Of a DNA stretch of 64,000 nt, positions 4,013-60,256 are shown in pieces (position 1 is the first letter of the stretch; every line of letters starts with the position of its first letter). Source of the DNA: Eledone cirrhosa. Lineage: Eukaryota. The position numbers were made by a program, and so were the translations under genes. The notes beneath the pieces were generated by a model. It ran no database searches. It saw nothing but the letters and a program-made list of their open reading frames with translations, and was not told the DNA's origin. The stretch covers positions 229,462,001-229,526,000 of the forward strand of contig OZ024742.1 of the NCBI GenBank assembly GCA_964016885.1, written 5' to 3'.

Positions 4013-4169
4013 ATTGGATAATTATATTGTGTTGTTTATTATTTAATTAAATAGCTCTGAACATTACATGGAGCACTCTTCTTTCCTTTACCTTTTCTAC
4101 GGAAATACTTAACACACACACACGCACTCACACACACACACTAACACACACACATATATATTTATATAT

Positions 4170-4244
4170 AAAGAGTCAGGACCCCGACGGCTGAGCTGGG
4201 CTCCAGCGTTATGGGCTCCTTGGTATCCTATCATACCCTCTTTG

Positions 4245-4302
<58 letters not shown>

Positions 4303-4378
4303 CAAAGAGGGTATGATAGGATACCAAGGAGCCCATAACGCTGGAGCTCAGCTCAGCCGTCGGGGTCCTGACTCTTTT
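4170..4378. repeat. inverted repeat (about 78-bp arms) around a (TA)n spacer
   Basis: aaagagtcaggaccccgacgg...ctctttgtt (TA)n aacaaagag...ccgtcggggtcctgactcttt, with one mismatch. The ORF track gives the same peptide on both strands. Confidence 0.95.
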
Positions 4379-4985
4379 CCTATAGCAACTACACAGCCAT
4401 TGCTAATCTCCATATATTTCATCATGTTTTTCTCTTTGACCATTCTTCTCTCCCCTTCTACCTTCCTATTTCGCCACTTTCTACTCTCACCCCTCTTTCT
4501 TCCCCTCCCTCTCTCCCTATCTACTCATTACCCCCACTTTCTTGCTCTCCCTTTCTCCCTCTCCCTTTAACCCCCTCGTCTGACCGTTTAGCAGTTCTCT
4601 TCTCACTTACAACTGCGGCCATCAGACGTGTGTCTTCTTTCTCTCGATTACTCGGTCTCGTACTTAAGTTCTATTATCGAGTGGTCTTCGATTTCCTACC
4701 TAGAGTTGCTCGCACATTGCTCGGTTTGTGGGTTTTTTTCGCTATTTTGTTACTGTTTCTCTTTTCTTCCCCTTTGCTTTCCTCCCCTCCTTCCTTCGTT
4801 TTCCCAATAACTTATCCAGTTATTGACGCCCTGGGGTGAAGTGGTATCCTGTCTCTAAAGCGTAGAAATATCCTAGACCCCCAGTAGACAACTGATGAGG
4901 ACCCCCTCCCTTTCTTCGTATTCTCACTGCATTTTAAGTTACCTTAAATAGCTACTACACAGCCATTTCAATTCTCCATATATTT

Positions 4986-5260: not shown

Positions 5261-5664
5261 TATATATTGGTAAACGGAATAGAAAATGCTGACAAATTGT
5301 TCACAGTTGAAAAATGGTTTAATTAGGAATAAAAGAGTATTAGTGATTGTATGGGTTAGTATTCAGTTGTGGTTTTAAGTTTTTAAGTTTTTACCGGTTG
5401 CGCATTTCTAAATGCTTTTCAAAAATAATTTTGAGATAGAGTGTCCGTGCTGTTTGCTCTGATCAGAGCAAACAGCACGGACACTCTATCTCAAAATTAT
5501 TTTTGAAAAGCATTTAGAAATGCGCAACCGGTAAAAACTTAAAAACTTAAAACCACAACTGAATACTAACCCATACAATCACTAATACTCTTTTATTCCT
5601 AATTAAACCATTTTTCAACTGTGAACAATTTGTCAGCATTTTCTATTCCGTTTACCAATATATA
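5261..5664. repeat. perfect spacer-less palindrome of about 404 bp
   Basis: The centre is ...gtttgctctga|tcagagcaaac... at 5462/5463. The arms read as exact reverse complements out to tatatattgg/ccaatatata. Each arm carries a hammerhead-like motif (5503-5533 on +). Confidence 0.95.
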
Positions 5665-5845
5665 ATAACTTGTGTGTTACACCTCTATTCTTTTAACTAT
5701 ATATATATATATATATGTGTGTGTGAGTTTTTCGAATATTAATAATAACATTCGATTTGTTTGCAATTATGCAAAAAAGCCTCAATTTTATAGCCATGTC
5801 AGTAGAATGAACCCTTCATTCTTGCTCTTGTGTTGCATGCGAGCA

Positions 5846-5895
5846 GAACTGCAGACACTAATGTTTCTGGGTATCACCCTTCATCAGTACAGCTC
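5846..5895 (-). ncRNA. type I hammerhead ribozyme, intact core
   Basis: GAGCTGTA CTGATGA a GGGT gat ACCC a GAA ACA ttag TGT C|TGCAGTTC. It has an 8-bp stem I (2 G-U), a 4-bp stem II, a 3-bp stem III and a GUC cleavage triplet. Confidence 0.8.
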
Positions 5896-5971
5896 ACTGT
5901 TCACCTGCCAAACTGTCAGAGCTAGTGAAAATATAAGCTAATTTCAAAAATACAGAGTGACAGATCGGCCT

Positions 5972-6030
5972 GATTTGCATATTAGCAGACTGGCTATTAC
6001 GATTTGCATATTAGCAGACTGGTATTACGA
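5972..6030. promoter_or_regulatory. 29-bp tandem duplication, each copy with an octamer motif (ATTTGCAT)
   Basis: gatttgcatattagcagactgg(c)tattac x2, with octamers at 5973-5980 and 6002-6009. The duplication is seen directly; a promoter role is inferred. Confidence 0.45.
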
Positions 6031-7171
6031 TACTTACAGAATATATATATATATATATTACATAATGTTGTTTTAGGTATCAATCGAAGTTGTAGGTGCC
6101 TTATATAAACACACATGGCGTGTTATAGTTGTAGACGCAGCGCGGCCGAACGGTGATGAGACCATTTGGCAGTCACTAGGTCTCTAGTTAGATATCACTG
6201 CATAGCAGCTTTGGCAATTGTCATTGGCTACAACCTCGGTTAAACCTATATTTTCTCAGTCAAATTAGGTAGATGGAAAGCGTTTGGATGTCCCTGTTTT
6301 TTAAAACCTCAACCTTATCATACAATGTGTCCCGCTGGGTATCGCAAGGAATTGTTAATATTACTATATGTGTCTGTGGAATAGTCAGCTACTTTCACGT
6401 TAATTACAGGTGTATGTTGTCTCTGTTGATAGAACAACTGGAACACTCATGCTCGATAGTGACCGAGGTCCATTACTTTCAAAATTATTTCGTGGTTATA
6501 GTTAAAAATAAACAGTTTATAGGAATCCAAATTGTCGATTGATAATTAATATAAAATCGTTTATTGAGTTATTAAAGTTATGAAAATGCGAAGAAATATG
6601 AAACTGCTTACACATCAATTATATATGTTTGTTTGTGTGTGTTTTAAGTGTGTATGTGTGTGTTGTATGTGTAGGTATGTGCGTGTGTGTGTGTCTGTAC
6701 ATATTAGCGCTTGTTTGTGTGTGTGTGTGTCAGTTTTGTACTTCGATGTTAAATGTGTGTTTGTGCGTGAGTGTGTGTGTCTGTGTGTTGTAAACGTGTG
6801 GATAAAATGTGTGCCCGTATTTATTTATCTATGATAATATATCCGTTGTTACTTTTGTGTTTGTGTGTATTTATGTCTTTTTCTGATTATCTGTGTGTGT
6901 GTATTTGTGAGTGTATGTGTGCGTTCGTATGTGTGTGTATATATTTGTGCGTAAGTATTATCTCATATAAAAATTAAAATTTGTCAGCTATAAAATATTT
7001 AATACACAGAAATATCTTAATTAGGTGACACTCCGTAAGAGTTATAAATTAATGAGTTTGACAGCAGAAAAGTAATAGTAGCTTTGCTTTTAAGTAATTT
7101 TCGAAAGCAAATTCCTGCAACTCACCTTGTTTTCTGCTCCTGGTCTTACGATGTTGATCCCCAAATACATA

Positions 7172-8316: not shown

Positions 8317-11300
8317 TTAATTGTAAGATGTGATGTTGCTGTTCCACTCATATTTTCTATTTAATTTTGGTTGTAATTCTTTTATGTTTAATGCCTCTGT
8401 GATTTGTCTAAACATTGCGTCTTTTCTGTGTGTAGATTCTATTTTTATTTCTATGTTCTCTAATTTACCCTTATGTGCTATATTAGCATGTTGGTAGAAT
8501 ACAGATGATTCTTTACTATCTTGAAGGTCTCGCCAGTGTTCATTTATCCGTTTCCCTACACTCCGAGCTGTCTCACCTATGTACACTATATTTTTGTCTC
8601 TACATTGTCCTTCAGTACATCTTATGCTATACACTACATATCTAGTTTTACACTTAATATGGGGGCTTATTTTACAGGTTATACATTTCTTATCTATACA
8701 GGGGGGTCTTTGAAAAGAGTATCTCTTGCTAATAAGTGTTTTTACGGAGGTACCTGGTATTTCTACTATCTTAATATTGAGTTTATGTTTATCTAGGGCC
8801 CTTCTAAATGTGTAAGCTAATTCACCTCTAGGGGTTGTATCGATGAACATTACACTCTGGTATTTATTGCTATCATACCATGAGTTTATTCTATTAGCCT
8901 TATTCCTAGTTCTTTCTATTCTATTCCAAAATTTGCTCCTATACAAGGGGCAGGTCCCATTTGTGTCATTATTTACCATTTTTTCCCATTTGGTTCTGGC
9001 TCCTCTATACACTCTGATTTTATCTCTCTGATTGTAACCAGAGAACTGCATACGGGGGATGAAGTGTTGTATGTGTCTCTCTAGTTCTTCGGGGTTGCAC
9101 ATGCGGGACACGTTTCTCATCACCCGTACCAAATCCGCAATCAGTATGTTGATTTTGGTATGGTCCGAAACAGGCGAGTTTCGGTGGATCAGATGTTTGG
9201 AAGTCATGGGATTGGCATAATGGGAATGGAGGATTTGTTTTTTGTTATTAATGGTATCTAACCAGAGCTCTGTGTCTAGTACAGGTAATCGATGGTTGGG
9301 GTGTTTACTTGGGTATTCTATAGTAACTCTAATACTCTGGTGGATGGAGTTAGCTATTTGCTGGATGCTTTCCATCGGGTTTTTCTCTAGTTCCTGACTG
9401 TTCTCTAGTGGGGGTGTCTTAACTACGATGTTTATATCATCAACGTAGCGGGAGTACATTATTAGGGTTAAGGGGTCTTCTAATTGTTCTTTAAGTTTAA
9501 GTTTAAGTCTACTGTCCCACCATACCATGAATAAGTTAGCTATGTCGCCTGCGATGATAACACCAATGGCTGCTCCTTCCTCTTGGGCATATGTTTTTCC
9601 ATTAAATTTGAACATATGTTCCTTAAGGGTTAGATTTATGCTGGGCCCTACCGCATGTGCAATCATTTTCTTTAGTTCATCGTGGTTTTCGGGTGTCCGT
9701 ATGGCTCCTGTCCACCCGTTCCATCTATCTGTGTGGGTTTTCTTGGCCATTGAGGTAATGGTAGGTGGTCTGCCTCTTGCTGGTCTTGTAGGGCACAGGT
9801 TGCTAAGGTCATATGTGTCTAGGTAATTATTACTATAGGTAAGTTTAAGTAGGAGTCCCAGCTCACCGGTATCAATCCCACCGAACTCAACATTGCTCTC
9901 ACTGATCATTTCTACGCATTTCTCCACAGCAAAATCCACGTCAATAGATGGATACAGGGACACAACATCCATACTACCTATTATGCAGTTTGTTAGGTCC
10001 CTAGATCAGTTAATCTCGCCGATTCTGCTGAGGAGGTCCTCCGTGCTGTCACATACATCTGGGGACATTTCAATGATGGGGCGTATGATCAGGGTGAGGA
10101 AGTAGGACAGTCGGTAGTTACTAGCAATGTTAGCTCCACAGACTGGCCGTGTTGGTGGTCCCGTGAAAGGGTCACTGCCCGTTTTATGATGCTTTCGAAG
10201 CCCATACAACGCCGGCACGTCATTGTTCCAGGCCTGGAAGTTGTTGGCAGTCCTTTTGTTGGGCTGCATTATATTCGCCCATATCACCATATGGGCATTG
10301 AGGGCTTTCTCTCTATCCTCATGCTCCTGCGGTGTTACCTCTCTTGTGTTAGTGATGTGGGGTTGCAGTGCCTGGATGTAGTTTGGCTGGCTGTCAACCG
10401 ACATTCTGCCAGACTTGTCTGTTGGAAAGCATGCTATCTCTCCATTACGCGAGCGCTGCATGAGCTTACGCAAGCCATTTGCAGATTTTTTTCCCAGTTG
10501 CTGGGCCTCCATTCTATTATGCTTCTTGCTATACTGTTCTATAATATTTCTAAGTTTGGATCTAGCTATACTAAATTGTGCTTCTGTTTGTTCATCGACC
10601 TGCGACGGCAATTGCGTGCGTTTGTTAAATGGTAAAGTCGTGGCGTGGACTCGTCGCAGGTCGAACGACTTATCGGAGGGATTATAAAAAGTAGAGTTCC
10701 AGGCTGCTGCTTTATGTGTACTAGTGCTATTGTTATTGTTAGTTGTGTTGTTTCTATTTCCACCAACAGCCTCATGGTTGTTTCTATGTCTCTCATAATT
10801 ACTCCTGTCTCTTTCCACTGGCTCATTGTTATTATCTACTCTATTTTGTGTGTCTGTGTGTTCGTCTTGGTTATATTCTTTGTCCATAGTCTCCCTTCTC
10901 CTTTTAATCCTATTAATTTCCCTTATTTCTGTGATTTCTGTGCTACTGTCATTACTTGTTTTCTGTGTCTGTGTGTTTGTTAAGATTGTGGTGGTGGTGA
11001 GAGGCATTGAATGTGTGTTGTTGTTGTCGATGTGTGCTGTTGTTGATGTGTGTTGTTGTTGTATCCGTGTGTGTTATTATTGTTGTGTGTGTTGTTATTG
11101 TTGTTTGTGTCTGCGTGTCTGTTGTTGTTGTTTCTGAGTATGTTATTATTGTTGGTGTGTGTGTTGTTATTGTTGATTGTGTCTGTGTGTCTGTTGTTGT
11201 TGGGATGTGTGTTGTATATGTGTGTACGTATGTTGTTACTTTTGTTTTTGTTTTTGTTTTTGAGGCTCCAACGTAATTTTGTAAATGATTTTTCTATTTC

Positions 11301-11550
11301 TGACAGACAACTAATCATATTTACCTTCTTGAATGTCGCAAATTTCGGTGGTAGAAGTAATACAGATAGTTCATCAGGGTCTATTGCCGTGTTGCCGTAT
11401 ATATTTGTGTTGTTGTTGTTGAACTCATCTGTTAATAAGGTGTCGGCCATATTTATACCGTCAATTTTGTCGGGATATCTATTGGTATTCTCTACAGTAT
11501 CCTGATTTAGTTTTATCTGCTTAAGCCACTTTAGTTTTTTGTTAAACTCG
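8317..11550 (-). pseudogene. PLE polyprotein: N-terminal region, DKG motif, reverse transcriptase, Cys-rich linker, GIY-YIG endonuclease
   Basis: Motifs are LLLPPKFA, PTDKSGR, DVVSLYPSI, GAAIG, SRYVDDI, LPVLD, CIDKKCITC, VVYSIRC..C..VYIGETARS..RINEH and RQITEALNI. There is one in-frame TGA (10006-10008), a frameshift in the Asn/Thr-rich tract near 11000, and 5' truncation at the inversion junction. The 551-aa block 8317-9972 is open. Confidence 0.9.
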
Positions 11551-12406
11551 GCTGTTTCGGACCATACCAAAATCAACATACTGATTGCGGATTTGGTGCG
11601 GGTGATGAGAAACCTGTCCCGCATGTGCAACCCCAAAGAACTAGATAGGCACATACAACACTTCATCCACCGTATGCAGTTCTCTGGTTACAATCAGAGA
11701 GATAAAATCAGAGTGTATAGAGGAGCCAGAACCAAATGGGAAAAAATGGTAAATAATGACACAAATGGGACCTGCCCCTTGTATAGGAGCAGATTTTGGA
11801 ATAGAATAGAAAGAACTAGGAATAAGGCTAATAGAATAAACTCATGGTATGATAGCAATAAATACCAGAGTGTAATGTTCATCGATACAACCCCTAGAGT
11901 TGAATTAGCTTACAAATTTAGAAGGGCCCTAGATAAACATAAACTCAATATTAAGATAGTAGAAATACCAGGTACCTCCGTAAAAACACTTATTAGCAAG
12001 AGATACCCTTTTCAAAGACCCCCCTGTATAGATAAGAAATGTATAACCTGTAAAATAAGCCCCCATATTAACTGTAAAACTAGAAATGTAGTGTATAGCA
12101 TAAGATGAACTGAAGGACAATGTAGAGACAAAAATATAGTGTACATAGGTGAGACAGCTCATAGTATAGGGGAACGTATAAATGAACACTGGCGAGACCT
12201 TTAAGATAGTAAAGAATCATCTGTATTTTACCAACATGCTAAAATAGAACATAAGGGTAAATTAGAGAACATAGAAATAAAAATAGAATCTACACACAGA
12301 AAAGACGCAATGTTTAGACAAATCACAGAGGCAATAACATAAAAGAATTACAACCAAAATTAAATAGAAAATATGAGTGGAACAGCAACATCACAACTTA
12401 CAATTA
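11544..12406 (+). pseudogene. inverted duplicate of PLE thumb + GIY-YIG
   Basis: The peptide is nearly identical to the C-terminal half of the 551-aa ORF. Stops lie at 12106-12108 (TGA for Cys) and 12202-12204. Confidence 0.9.
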
Positions 12407-12608: not shown

Positions 12609-12651
12609 GTCACTGAAGAGGTCACAGACTGTGTGACGAAATAACTTTGAC
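12609..12651 (+). ncRNA. minimal hammerhead ribozyme in PLE pLTR
   Basis: GTCA CTGAAGA g GTCACA gactg TGTGAC GAAA taac TT|TGAC. Stems I and II pair and stem III is minimal. Minimal hammerheads are an established feature of PLE pLTRs. Confidence 0.75.
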
Positions 12652-57247: not shown

Positions 57248-57957
57248 CTTCTTCTTCTTCTTCTTCTTCTTCTTCTTCTTCTACGCTTATTTATTCCTGA
57301 GAGAGTCATGCGGGCAGAGTGCTCAAACACACCTGTCAGAAGCAACCGTCTCCAACTGATCCGATTGGATCCACAAGCGAGACAAGCCAAACATCTTGCT
57401 CGGGATCTACTACTGGGTCACATGTCGGTTGATTTTGCTTGTAAAATATGTCCTGCAATTCTTTCCTGAGACATTCTAACCACATGCCCATAGTATCAGA
57501 GCTGTGATCACTCAATTCGGATAAATAGTGGTTCTACCTGGATTGATTCCGAAGACCATTCGGAAGAACCCCATTCCGACCGCTTGCATTCGCGATCGTA
57601 TTCTTTCGGTCATTACCCAAGATTCATGAACATAGTTAAGGGTTGGCACGTGTACCGAATTGAAGATAGAGAGTTTGCATTTGATGCCTACCTCCCTTCT
57701 TCTGAATACTGAATGCTGAATCTGGTGTATTACTGCACCAGCTTCTGCAATTCTTGCACTTAATTTAACTTCCTGCCTTCCATCACTCGTCAACAACATC
57801 GGTAACCACTGAGCCGTAGGTTTTATGTCAGAGTTAACCCAGTTTCCTGAGTTGCCTTCTCCTAGAAGAATGCCCTGACAAAAGTAGAGGTCCTTCACTC
57901 CCAGTGAATTAACCGCGCGATCGGGTATCCAGCCCGATTATTTCTATGTCTCCGCAC
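57248..57957 (-). mobile_element. chimeric/deleted RTE-group element with (AAG)n tail
   Basis: A type B head (57830-57957) is joined to SDGRQEVKLSARI...KLSIFNSVHVPTLNYVHESW...MGFFR and ends in (AAG)n. Confidence 0.7.
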
Positions 57958-58021
57958 ATATACATACACAAGCATACATGTATATATATATATATATATA
58001 TACATACACACACACACACAC

Positions 58022-58052
<31 letters not shown>

Positions 58053-58058
58053 TATATA

Positions 58059-60256
58059 CGTGGGAAAGCACCCGTAGGATAGAGAACCTTAACAAACATA
58101 TACACAGGTTCTTCAAGTCATACGGCCTATCCTTAACTATGGACCTCAACCACAGGGTTGTCAACTTCCTGGACGTGACCCTGGAGTTGAGTACGGGCTT
58201 ATACAAGCCATACCATAAGCCTGGAGATTGCCTCTCTTATATTAATTATGCCTCCAACCACCCTAAGCAGACTCTCAACTCCATAGTCTATAGTATCTCA
58301 CATAGAATCTCGAGGCTATCCGCCAATGAGGATATCTTCAACCAAGCGGCAGATTACTACAATAGGGCCTTGATAATCGCCGGCTTTAACCGAGGAATTT
58401 CCTACATCCCTAACGCTACCTCTAGAAACGACCCCCCTCATAAAACGAACGTTATAGTAAGCCATACCTATAACCGATCACGCGGCGACCTCGTTGAAGT
58501 CGGATATAATAGAATAGATAACCGCACTAAATATCACGACCCCGGCGACGGTGAACACTGTAGATTACTCGAACTATTCCCCTATTACAAAACCAACAAA
58601 GGCGACGGCCTACTACCAACGCCTTCCAACCAACATCTTCGTGTACATAAACATGGTAGAGGTAGGAAGAGTGCACCCGAGCATAAAGTGAAAGGGGCAC
58701 CGAACGGGCGACTGCGCATTAACAAACATAAGAGCGGTCACCTAGATGGAACCGCCCGTAGCAAAAGTACAAGGACACATAATCGCCACCGTAACGTCCT
58801 ATGGTTCCACCTCCACCCCCCTACTCTCGGAGTGTGGCCTCCAACATACCCCGGATGTTCTTCGAAGTCTTAGAGAAGAACTTCCCGCACAACCATAGGT
58901 ATAGAAAAATTCTTATTAGGAACAATATAAAAATATCCTTCTCTACTACTCCTAACCTAGCAGACATCATAGGAACAACGAACCACAGTAAGATCACCAA
59001 GACACAACACCTCGACACAGACGCACCTACACCTGACAATAACTATATCGGCCTTAACAACTCCCTGGCAGCATCCAATAGTGTTGGCAACGGCATCCGC
59101 AGACGCAACCAGCATAACCGCGAAATGACTGGGGAACATGCAGGACATGACGTGCGGAATAACAATCGCACCACGCCGCGTGCTGTGGGTTGTAATGGTG
59201 CTAACGACAGCTGCGGTAGCGAAGGTAACAACGTACGCAGCAACAATGATAGCCTTACCGTGGGAAATAGACGGAACCGCGACATAAATTGCAACTGTCG
59301 CGACAGAGGACGCTGCCCCCTTAGAGGGTACTGCTTGACTGATAGAGTTATATATAGATGCACTATTACTAGCCACAATAGCGTTATACATTATATAGGG
59401 GCTACCTCCGGCCCGTTTAAAATTAGGTTTCGAACACATCTCCACTCTTTCACAAATAGAAAACTAAGGCACACACTTCGCTCGCGGACTACATCACATC
59501 ACTAAAGGACTTAAACATCAGCTTCTCCACGCACCGGGAGATTGTCGGCAGGGCTGCACCGTACAACTTCAAGAGGAAATGCGATCTTTGCCTCATGGAG
59601 CTCTACCACATCATAACTGCACCCCACGAGCTGATGAACAGCAGAGCTGAAACAGCGATAAGTTGTACACATCGCTTTAAAATATCCTTCTTCAGATGGG
59701 TTAAGGATGAGGAGTGAAACCGTACACCGGATCTCCTTGCAACAGGCAGGGAGATCCGGTGTACGGCAGCCGCTTCAAAATAACACGCAGGAAACAATCC
59801 TTGCATACCAGACCCAGCCTCGGACAAACAGATGCGGATAACAAATTTGTCCGGGAAAGACTGTCCTAACACCGGCCAGAGTTACCTCCCTTGACCTGCT
59901 GCAAAATCAAAACAAGCTATTTTTGCGAGCAATGAACCTTGATGTGGATTTAACCCCCAAAACTCTTTCCGAGCAATATAAGGAACACTTTTGATTATTA
60001 TGCCCTTGAGAAGCCCAACTGGGCGAAACGTACGTAGGTGCTGTTTTAAATAAACATGTTTTAACGGTCTATTCTCCGATTTTTTACTTTCCCACTTGCT
60101 TACGCTCTGCTAACTCTCTAGCCCACTAAATATTAACACTTCGAATATTTAATACTGCCGGCACTAGTATCGAGCACCTTTGGCATACGCTACTTGGCAA
60201 ATAACTATATGTATCACCTATCCTCCCCTTTTTTTCTCTTTCTCGATACGTAAATA

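What the first reader, a model, noticed from the sequence alone, without database searches (positions are those of the whole stretch)
5750..6030. Candidate retrozyme/satellite-2-like unit: intact hammerhead plus duplicated octamer, no ORF
Seen: a roughly 280-bp non-coding segment between microsatellites carries the best-formed hammerhead in the window, on the minus strand (CUGAUGA/GAAA, 8-bp stem I, 3-bp stem III, GUC site). About 80-110 nt upstream are two ATGCAAAT octamers. An A-A opposition closes stem II. Known: newt satellite 2 and metazoan non-LTR retrozymes are short hammerhead-containing repeats, and satellite 2 uses an snRNA-like promoter with an octamer. Inference: this may be a cephalopod family of self-cleaving, possibly circular small RNAs mobilised by PLE proteins.
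Basis: partly seen in the sequence, partly recalled or inferred. Interest (0 to 1): 0.75.

Follow-up and report, generated by a model that had tools for sequence, protein, structure and literature searches.

The report
Hammerhead retrozyme carrying its own promoter
This is a shortened copy of a protein-free jumping repeat, present thousands of times in this animal genome, that carries a predicted self-cutting hammerhead RNA behind a likely promoter resembling those of the host's own small-nuclear-RNA genes, and is probably copied by Penelope-type enzymes.

Summary
Window 5724-6022 (minus strand) is a 5'-truncated copy (about 0.7 unit) of a 437-444 nt, ORF-less, head-to-tail repeat with at least 3081 hammerhead cores genome-wide. 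Copies end in (TA)n (213 of 271 arms) and often form inverted pairs, which is Penelope-type anatomy. No arm continues a Penelope ORF (0 of 100 5' flanks). The unit folds as a strongly self-paired circle (z about -11). So it is a non-LTR retrozyme.

The A-A pair closing stem II is a family trait (217 of 226); relatives have G-C, U-U or C-A there. The octamer alone is at chance level, but its context is not. TATGCAAATCAG plus a TATA box matches this genome's U6 promoters, and a TCAGT block matches its U1/U2 promoters (3 of 1000 shuffles). The predicted start lies about 50 nt before the cut site, and 5' ends of copies are modestly enriched there. This copy's own TCAGT is mutated, and it has one hammerhead, so it is likely dead.

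Cleavage, transcription and circles are untested. The scan reported the same layout before on other DNA, in this genome and others.

The parts
5724..6022 (-). 5'-truncated copy (about 0.7 unit) of the 437-444 nt retrozyme repeat
   Evidence: 94% identical to the family majority over 300 nt; 93-94% to the best genomic hits
5972..6031 (-). 29-bp tandem duplication at the 5' junction of this copy; it gives the second perfect octamer (6002-6009)
   Evidence: TRF period 29, 2.1 copies; the family has ATGCAGAT at the matching place
5970..5981 (-). U6-type proximal element TATGCAAATCAG (contains octamer 5973-5980)
   Evidence: Host U6 genes carry TATGC(A/T)AAT(G/T)AG at -77 to -79; same element 89-102 nt before the hammerhead core in four repeat families
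5956..5965 (-). U1/U2-type PSE-like block (family ATCAGTCACT; this copy has A to T at 5962)
   Evidence: Host U1/U2 genes have TCAGT at -56 to -58; matrix score 13.6 bits for the family, reached by 3 of 1000 shuffles; 7.7 bits for this copy
5931..5937 (-). TATA-like box (family CATATAT; this copy CTTATAT)
   Evidence: 27 nt after TCAGT, as in host U1/U2 (23-28 nt)
5902..5908 (-). Predicted transcription start, 49-55 nt before the cut site
   Evidence: From U1/U2 spacing and U6 spacing; 5' ends of copies enriched in a 15-nt window here, 12 against 5.5 expected in the replication set. Inferred, not mapped
5846..5895 (-). Type I hammerhead motif; predicted cut after C 5854 (GUC); A 5880 opposite A 5868 at positions 10.1/11.1; self-complementary stem III/loop 3 ACAUUAGUGU
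   Evidence: A-A in 217 of 226 cores; register fixed by relatives with G-C, U-U or C-A there
5735..5746 (-). ATTATTAATATT: site that takes an abundant SINE in other copies (empty in this copy)
   Evidence: 1133 exact junctions genome-wide; 25 of 138 hammerhead-selected loci
5698..5723 (.). (TA)n/(TG)n microsatellite at the 3' end; likely the insertion target
   Evidence: 213 of 271 arms of the family run into (TA)n
6041..6058 (.). (TA)n at the 5' side

Best explanation
It is a truncated copy of an ORF-less, tandem-unit hammerhead repeat (a non-LTR retrozyme) that likely carries its own snRNA-type promoter and is likely copied into (TA)n tracts by the reverse transcriptase and endonuclease of Penelope-like elements. 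Proposed cycle: (1) shown: a minority of copies hold a promoter block plus two hammerheads in tandem; (2) inferred: these are transcribed from a start about 50 nt before the first cut site; (3) predicted: the A-A-closed, self-inhibiting hammerhead cuts slowly, best as a dimer, so uncut transcripts and cut-to-cut monomers (which a host ligase would circularise) coexist; (4) inferred from insertion anatomy: a PLE enzyme primes 140-180 nt behind a cut site at U/A-rich points that pair with nicked (TA)n, and copies up to about two units, often as two inverted arms; (5) long products rebuild promoter plus two hammerheads, while short ones such as this copy are dead ends.
For: Copy number: 1104 exact 34-nt cores and 3081 with free stem II, controls 0. 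Tandem period 437-444 in 17 of 20 direct pairs. Longest sense stop-free run 47 codons. 39% GC; the L004 monomer folds as a circle at -153.9 against -100.7 +/- 4.9 kcal/mol, 0 of 60 shuffles, and z is still -6.8 without the octamer hairpin. 3' ends: 118 of 271 arms at unit 142-149, 100 at 170-181; 213 of 271 run into (TA)n; 90 of 175 loci hold both orientations. Craig et al. describe (TA)n bias and tandem/inverted insertions for PLEs (PMC8557442, passages). Promoter: matches to host U6 and U1/U2 promoters. The octamer-TATA-hammerhead order is kept in three other families with different stems. 5' ends near the predicted start: replication set 12 against 5.5 expected (p about 0.01); second pass, both sets, 6 against 0.85. 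Double-hammerhead fold -32.6 against -32.8 for two inhibited monomers, while the single hammerhead fold is 6.2 kcal/mol above its alternative.
Against: No transcription, cleavage or circle was observed. There is no significant pile-up at the cut site (3 against 1.65). The core decays like the rest of the unit (73 of 116 intact), and within the family compensatory change is rare (stem I T-A to G-C in 2 of 218). The sister family scores 0.4 bits on the U1/U2 matrix, so the polymerase is unresolved; a U6/Pol III reading must explain read-through of T9, T5 and T4 tracts. The octamers lie inside a long RNA hairpin, so structure could help keep them. No autonomous partner was found: two arms join directly to PLEs, of two different families (L040, L029). 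Li et al. saw cleavage in only 1 of 9 Xenopus dimers.
Confidence: 0.75

Rival explanations
1. It is the pseudo-LTR or internally deleted derivative of an autonomous PLE not sampled here, copied from linear multimeric RNA by template jumps, with no circular stage.
For: 5' ends lean towards the predicted start site, which a linear RNA explains. No family-1 array of three hammerheads was seen. Published work derives retrozymes from pLTRs (bioRxiv 2026.07.22.740005).
Against: 0 of 100 5' flanks have a PLE ORF reading into the unit within 300 nt (25 baits, flanks up to 700 nt). Long arms wrap back into the unit itself, up to 880-907 nt. None of 50 GIY-YIG loci uses the unit as its end. The whole unit folds strongly.
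Confidence: 0.15
2. The hammerhead is a catalytically dead relic; the family spreads as a SINE-like PLE passenger driven by its promoter and 3' end alone.
For: A-A at 10.1/11.1 replaces the pair that is nearly always G-C (PMC4209133; PMC3088659). The minimum-energy fold hides the core. No significant 5' pile-up at the cut site.
Against: All catalytic core letters, the GUC site and a self-complementary stem III are kept in the master sequence of a family with thousands of copies. Sister families vary at 10.1/11.1 while keeping the core. A natural U-U mismatch there is reported to support cleavage.
Confidence: 0.2
3. The octamers are by-products of repeated RNA hairpins, and the copies are transcribed only by read-through from outside promoters.
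For: The three octamer-like motifs sit in a 33-nt subrepeat that forms a long hairpin. The octamer is at chance frequency in the window. A review states that retrozymes seem to lack promoters (PMC7761336).
Against: The 12-nt element matches host U6 promoters and keeps its distance to TATA and hammerhead in four families. The sister family has one octamer per unit and no such subrepeat. TCAGT matrix match in family 1.
Confidence: 0.12

Closest known systems
Metazoan non-LTR retrozymes (Cervera and de la Pena 2020, PMC7229834, passages read; review PMC7761336, passages read; Li et al. bioRxiv 10.64898/2026.07.22.740005, parts 1-3 of 5 read)
   Same: Type I hammerhead in a small, low-GC, ORF-less head-to-tail unit; predicted highly self-paired circle; PLEs in the same genome.
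   Different: Mostly dispersed truncated and inverted copies, at most about two units in my sample. Fixed A-A at 10.1/11.1. Internal snRNA-like promoter block, which the review says retrozymes seem to lack. No octopus or cephalopod term in PMC7229834.
Newt satellite 2 (Coats, Zhang and Epstein 1994; paper not held; title and a one-line citation seen in PMC2220036)
   Same: Hammerhead repeat with an internal snRNA-type promoter.
   Different: Reported there as Pol II. Here the shared element is the host's U6-type proximal octamer plus TATA, with a U1/U2-type block in one family only. Element positions in satellite 2 could not be compared.
Minimal hammerheads in PLE pseudo-LTRs (Cervera and de la Pena 2014, PMC4209133, parts 1-2 of 4 read)
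   Same: Palindromic stem III/loop 3 suited to dimers; an unpaired base after A9; low activity expected; more-than-unit copying.
   Different: No ORF linked. Stem I is 8 bp and stem III can close alone. G10.1-C11.1 directly before G12 is not kept.

Membership tests
Non-LTR retrozyme | Type I hammerhead with conserved core | tested here: met
   variant A-A closing pair; no Rfam hammerhead row among the 150 shown
Non-LTR retrozyme | Head-to-tail tandem units, at least two consecutive hammerheads | tested here: met
   17 of 20 direct pairs at 437-444 nt; not in this copy itself
Non-LTR retrozyme | Small unit, GC below 45-50% | tested here: met
   436-438 nt, 38-39% GC; above the 170-400 nt of PMC7229834, within the 51-972 bp of Li et al.
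Non-LTR retrozyme | No coding capacity | tested here: met
   Sense stop-free runs at most 47 codons in an in-script trimer; at most 91 codons within the element in real locus L082; an antisense frame of 129 codons in the in-script trimer was not followed up
Non-LTR retrozyme | Highly self-paired monomer | tested here: met
   Predicted only: z -11.0 (L004), -6.4 (sister family)
Non-LTR retrozyme | Self-cleavage as monomer or dimer | not testable with these tools
   Folding energies only
Non-LTR retrozyme | Accumulation of circular RNA | not testable with these tools
   Needs RNase R or northern data
Non-LTR retrozyme | No PBS or PPT | not tested
   No search run
pLTR of an autonomous PLE | Unit flanks an RT plus GIY-YIG ORF | tested here: not met
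   0 of 100 5' flanks; 0 of 50 GIY-YIG loci; samples, not the whole genome
PLE-mobilised element | Fixed 3' ends in microsatellites, 5' truncation, inverted arms | tested here: met
   213 of 271 arms into (TA)n; 90 of 175 loci with both orientations
Satellite-2-type snRNA promoter | Elements matching host snRNA promoters at the right spacing | tested here: met
   U6-type element and TATA in four families; U1/U2 block in family 1 only
Satellite-2-type snRNA promoter | Start site upstream of the cut site | tested here: inconclusive
   Modest excess of 5' ends, mixed between sets
Satellite-2-type snRNA promoter | Promoter activity and polymerase | not testable with these tools
   Needs a reporter or run-on assay

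The most novel reading that the evidence does not exclude
A superfamily of self-promoting retrozymes has captured the host's snRNA promoter inside each unit and tunes its hammerhead down at the stem II closing pair (G-C, U-U, C-A, A-A in sister families), so that uncut primary transcripts and circles both serve as templates for Penelope enzymes. That would close the retrozyme life cycle without read-through and supply a natural series for testing how ribozyme speed sets copy number.
Probability: 0.35. Interest if true: 0.7.

Novelty: new variant of a known kind. Interest (0 to 1): 0.5.

Why it matters
How animal retrozymes are transcribed and what moves them are open points: a review says they seem to lack promoters and show no motif that names their mobiliser (PMC7761336). 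Here a 90-nt block matches the host's own snRNA promoters, and hundreds of junctions show Penelope-type insertion. Both points become testable with short natural constructs. The class itself is known, a similar promoter was reported for newt satellite 2, and the scan has noted the layout before, which limits the surprise.

Tried and rejected
RNA evidence: no RNA holder listed. Contigs of runs X1, X4 and X5, of unrecorded kind, were laid; they show the family and nothing on expression. X5 (organism B) has 3 contigs, one with 238 nt at 6 differences, too little to claim a second species. A genome-wide count of tandem dimers was not obtained; tandem spacing comes from fetched loci only. Rfam: no hammerhead row shown. 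Autonomous partner: not found by blast of 50 GIY-YIG loci against the unit or blastx of 481 flanks against 25 PLE baits. One search stopped on an error part-way and its baits included non-PLE LINEs, so it is not used for counts. A 3'-box reading of GAAAAACTCAGATT (5733-5724 and beyond) resembles host U1/U2 3' flanks by eye; it was not scored and has no clear match in the sister family, so it is not claimed. The host's distal TTACCTCCCTT motif has no sense-strand match in the unit at up to 3 mismatches. A chimeric SINE-retrozyme master was rejected, because 5' junctions vary and two arms of one insertion carry different SINE lengths. A pile-up of 5' ends at the cut site looked real by eye but was not significant. 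Literature: 'retrozyme' with 'snRNA promoter' gave 0 papers; 'satellite 2, newt, octamer, snRNA' gave 0; 'hammerhead ribozyme' with 'octopus' gave 5, none on this family by title or abstract start; the O. vulgaris repeat paper PMC13282606 has none of the terms ribozyme, hammerhead or retrozyme in its main text (supplements not read). Coats 1994 and Lunse 2017 are not held. Supplements of the bioRxiv preprint are closed and were not seen.

Full report
Observation. It was the best-paired candidate in my scan of the window. Octamers lie at 6009-6002 and 5980-5973, but four in the window is below the 6.1 expected. The two lie in a 29-bp duplication at this copy's 5' junction.

The family. A search of the genome gave 1407 candidates, of which 40 were scored, at 92-96% identity apart from the window itself. 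There are 1104 exact 34-nt cores and 3081 cores with a free stem II; reversed controls gave 0. Sequence downstream of the hammerhead reappears upstream, so the element is a head-to-tail unit; 17 of 20 direct hammerhead pairs are 437-444 nt apart. The window copy covers about 0.7 unit, 5724-6022, at 94% to the majority. Median identity to the majority is 93% in 90 core-selected loci. Arms selected for length reach 880-907 nt, about two units. I saw no family-1 run of three hammerheads in the fetched loci. The unit is 39% GC and has no sense reading frame over 47 codons.

Insertion anatomy. I mapped 271 arms with a normal 3' end from 200 fetched loci, after dropping repeated junctions, arms at locus edges and the 60 loci selected for length; a few segmental duplicates may remain. 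118 end at unit 142-149 and 100 at 170-181, and 213 run into (TA)n. 90 of 175 loci hold arms in both orientations, joined at their truncated 5' ends. These are the features described for PLEs (PMC8557442, passages). The unit is not a pLTR in my sample: none of 100 5' flanks has a PLE ORF reading into it within 300 nt, and among 50 GIY-YIG loci the unit appears only as a separate insertion. Two arms join directly to truncated PLEs, of two different families (L040, L029), so the partner is open.

RNA structure. The real monomer of L004 folds as a circle at -153.9 kcal/mol against -100.7 +/- 4.9 for 60 shuffles; without the octamer hairpin z is -6.8, and the antisense strand gives -138.3. The lone hammerhead prefers a fold that pairs CUGAUG with CAUUAG (-16.4 against -10.2). 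Stem III with its loop, ACAUUAGUGU, is self-complementary, and the double hammerhead (-32.6) matches two inhibited monomers (-32.8). This predicts slow, dimer-aided cleavage, as reported for PLE and amphibian hammerheads. A-A is present in 217 of 226 cores. The core decays at the same rate as the rest of the unit, as expected for copies after insertion, so there is little covariation within the family. Covariation comes from sister families found along the way: family 2 (3595 candidates; C-A closing pair; a U-U variant with three tandem cores in L177) and two further families with canonical G-C (L261/L301 and L050). All change the stems and keep the core. A natural U-U at this pair is reported to allow cleavage (PMC3088659, passage); A-A was not mentioned in the passages shown.

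Promoter. I compared the unit with the genome's own snRNA genes. None of 15 distinct U1/U2 upstream regions has an octamer within 330 nt; they have TCAGT at -56 to -58 and a TATA-like run. Four of six distinct U6 upstream regions have TATGC(A/T)AAT at about -77 to -79 and TATA at -31; in a fifth a SINE displaces it and the sixth lacks it. The unit has TATGCAAATCAG, then TCAGT 17 nt later, then CATATAT. A matrix from 8 U1/U2 promoters scores that site at 13.6 bits (left-out true promoters 8.0-25.2; 3 of 1000 shuffles). Either spacing puts the start 49-55 nt before the cut site. Family 2 keeps the U6-type element and TATA but scores 0.4 on the U1/U2 matrix, so the shared part is U6-like, while read-through of T9, T5 and T4 tracts would favour Pol II. 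The window copy has TCAGT changed to TCTGT and scores 7.7.

Do copies record the start? In a 15-nt window chosen on set 1, the replication set has 12 5' ends against 5.5 expected (p about 0.01), and on the second pass both sets give 6 against 0.85. Against this, set 1 over both passes gives 7 against 6.9, the cut site gives 3 against 1.65, and the T tract has the largest excess by count, 20 against 5.0. I take this as modest support for uncut linear templates beside longer or circular ones. Only 5 of 271 arms are long enough to hold a promoter plus two hammerheads; the length-selected search found about 40 places of 1.4 units or more.

Comparison. It meets every sequence-testable feature of non-LTR retrozymes that I tested (PMC7229834; bioRxiv 2026.07.22.740005). 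It differs in the fixed A-A pair and in the promoter block, which a review says retrozymes seem to lack but which newt satellite 2 is cited as having (the original is not held). My searches found no paper on such a family in cephalopods. Earlier scan notes describe the same layout in this genome and others. I saw them only after my promoter and family-2 tests; they are unchecked notes and not independent support.

Verdict. A real, well-supported variant of a known kind. The window copy itself is probably inert. Interest 0.5.

Noticed in passing
family copies at the site matching window 5735-5746; L191-L220: An abundant SINE of about 185 nt (11 copies with a 3' end in the window) sits at one fixed position of the unit in 1133 exact junctions and in 25 of 138 hammerhead-selected loci. 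Insertions look independent. The SINE targets ATTAT-type sites generally.
   Followed up: yes
L282:840-1160, L291-L320, L177:2600-3700: Second ORF-less family (unit about 430-480 nt) with the same octamer-TATA-hammerhead order, a C-A or U-U closing pair, and GUU or GUA cut triplets; three tandem cores in L315 and L177.
   Followed up: partly
L261, L301, L050 flanks: Two further families with the U6-type element 94-102 nt before a hammerhead with canonical G10.1-C11.1.
   Followed up: no
L121-L160: Host snRNA promoters are unusual: U1/U2 have TCAGT plus a TATA-like run, U6 has a proximal octamer, and most share TTACCTCCCTT-like sequence near -260. The same SINE interrupts a U6 promoter in L139/L140.
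   Followed up: partly
window 5261-5664 and 4163-4384: Near-perfect palindromes (202-nt arms at 100%; 111-nt arms at 96%) beside (TA)n, probably inverted insertions of other PLE-type repeats.
   Followed up: no
window 8320-11687 (-) and 57908-59502 (+): Broken PLE-like ORFs (GIY-YIG and weak RT match for 8320-10005; the second judged by eye), with a different hammerhead-like motif near 12613; unrelated to this unit.
   Followed up: partly
L040:1575 and L029:1446: Retrozyme arms joined directly to 5'-truncated PLEs of two families; possible template switches.
   Followed up: partly
L250, L274-L277, L280, L285, L288 flanks: Other recurrent hammerhead-like repeats in (TA)n near PLE loci.
   Followed up: no
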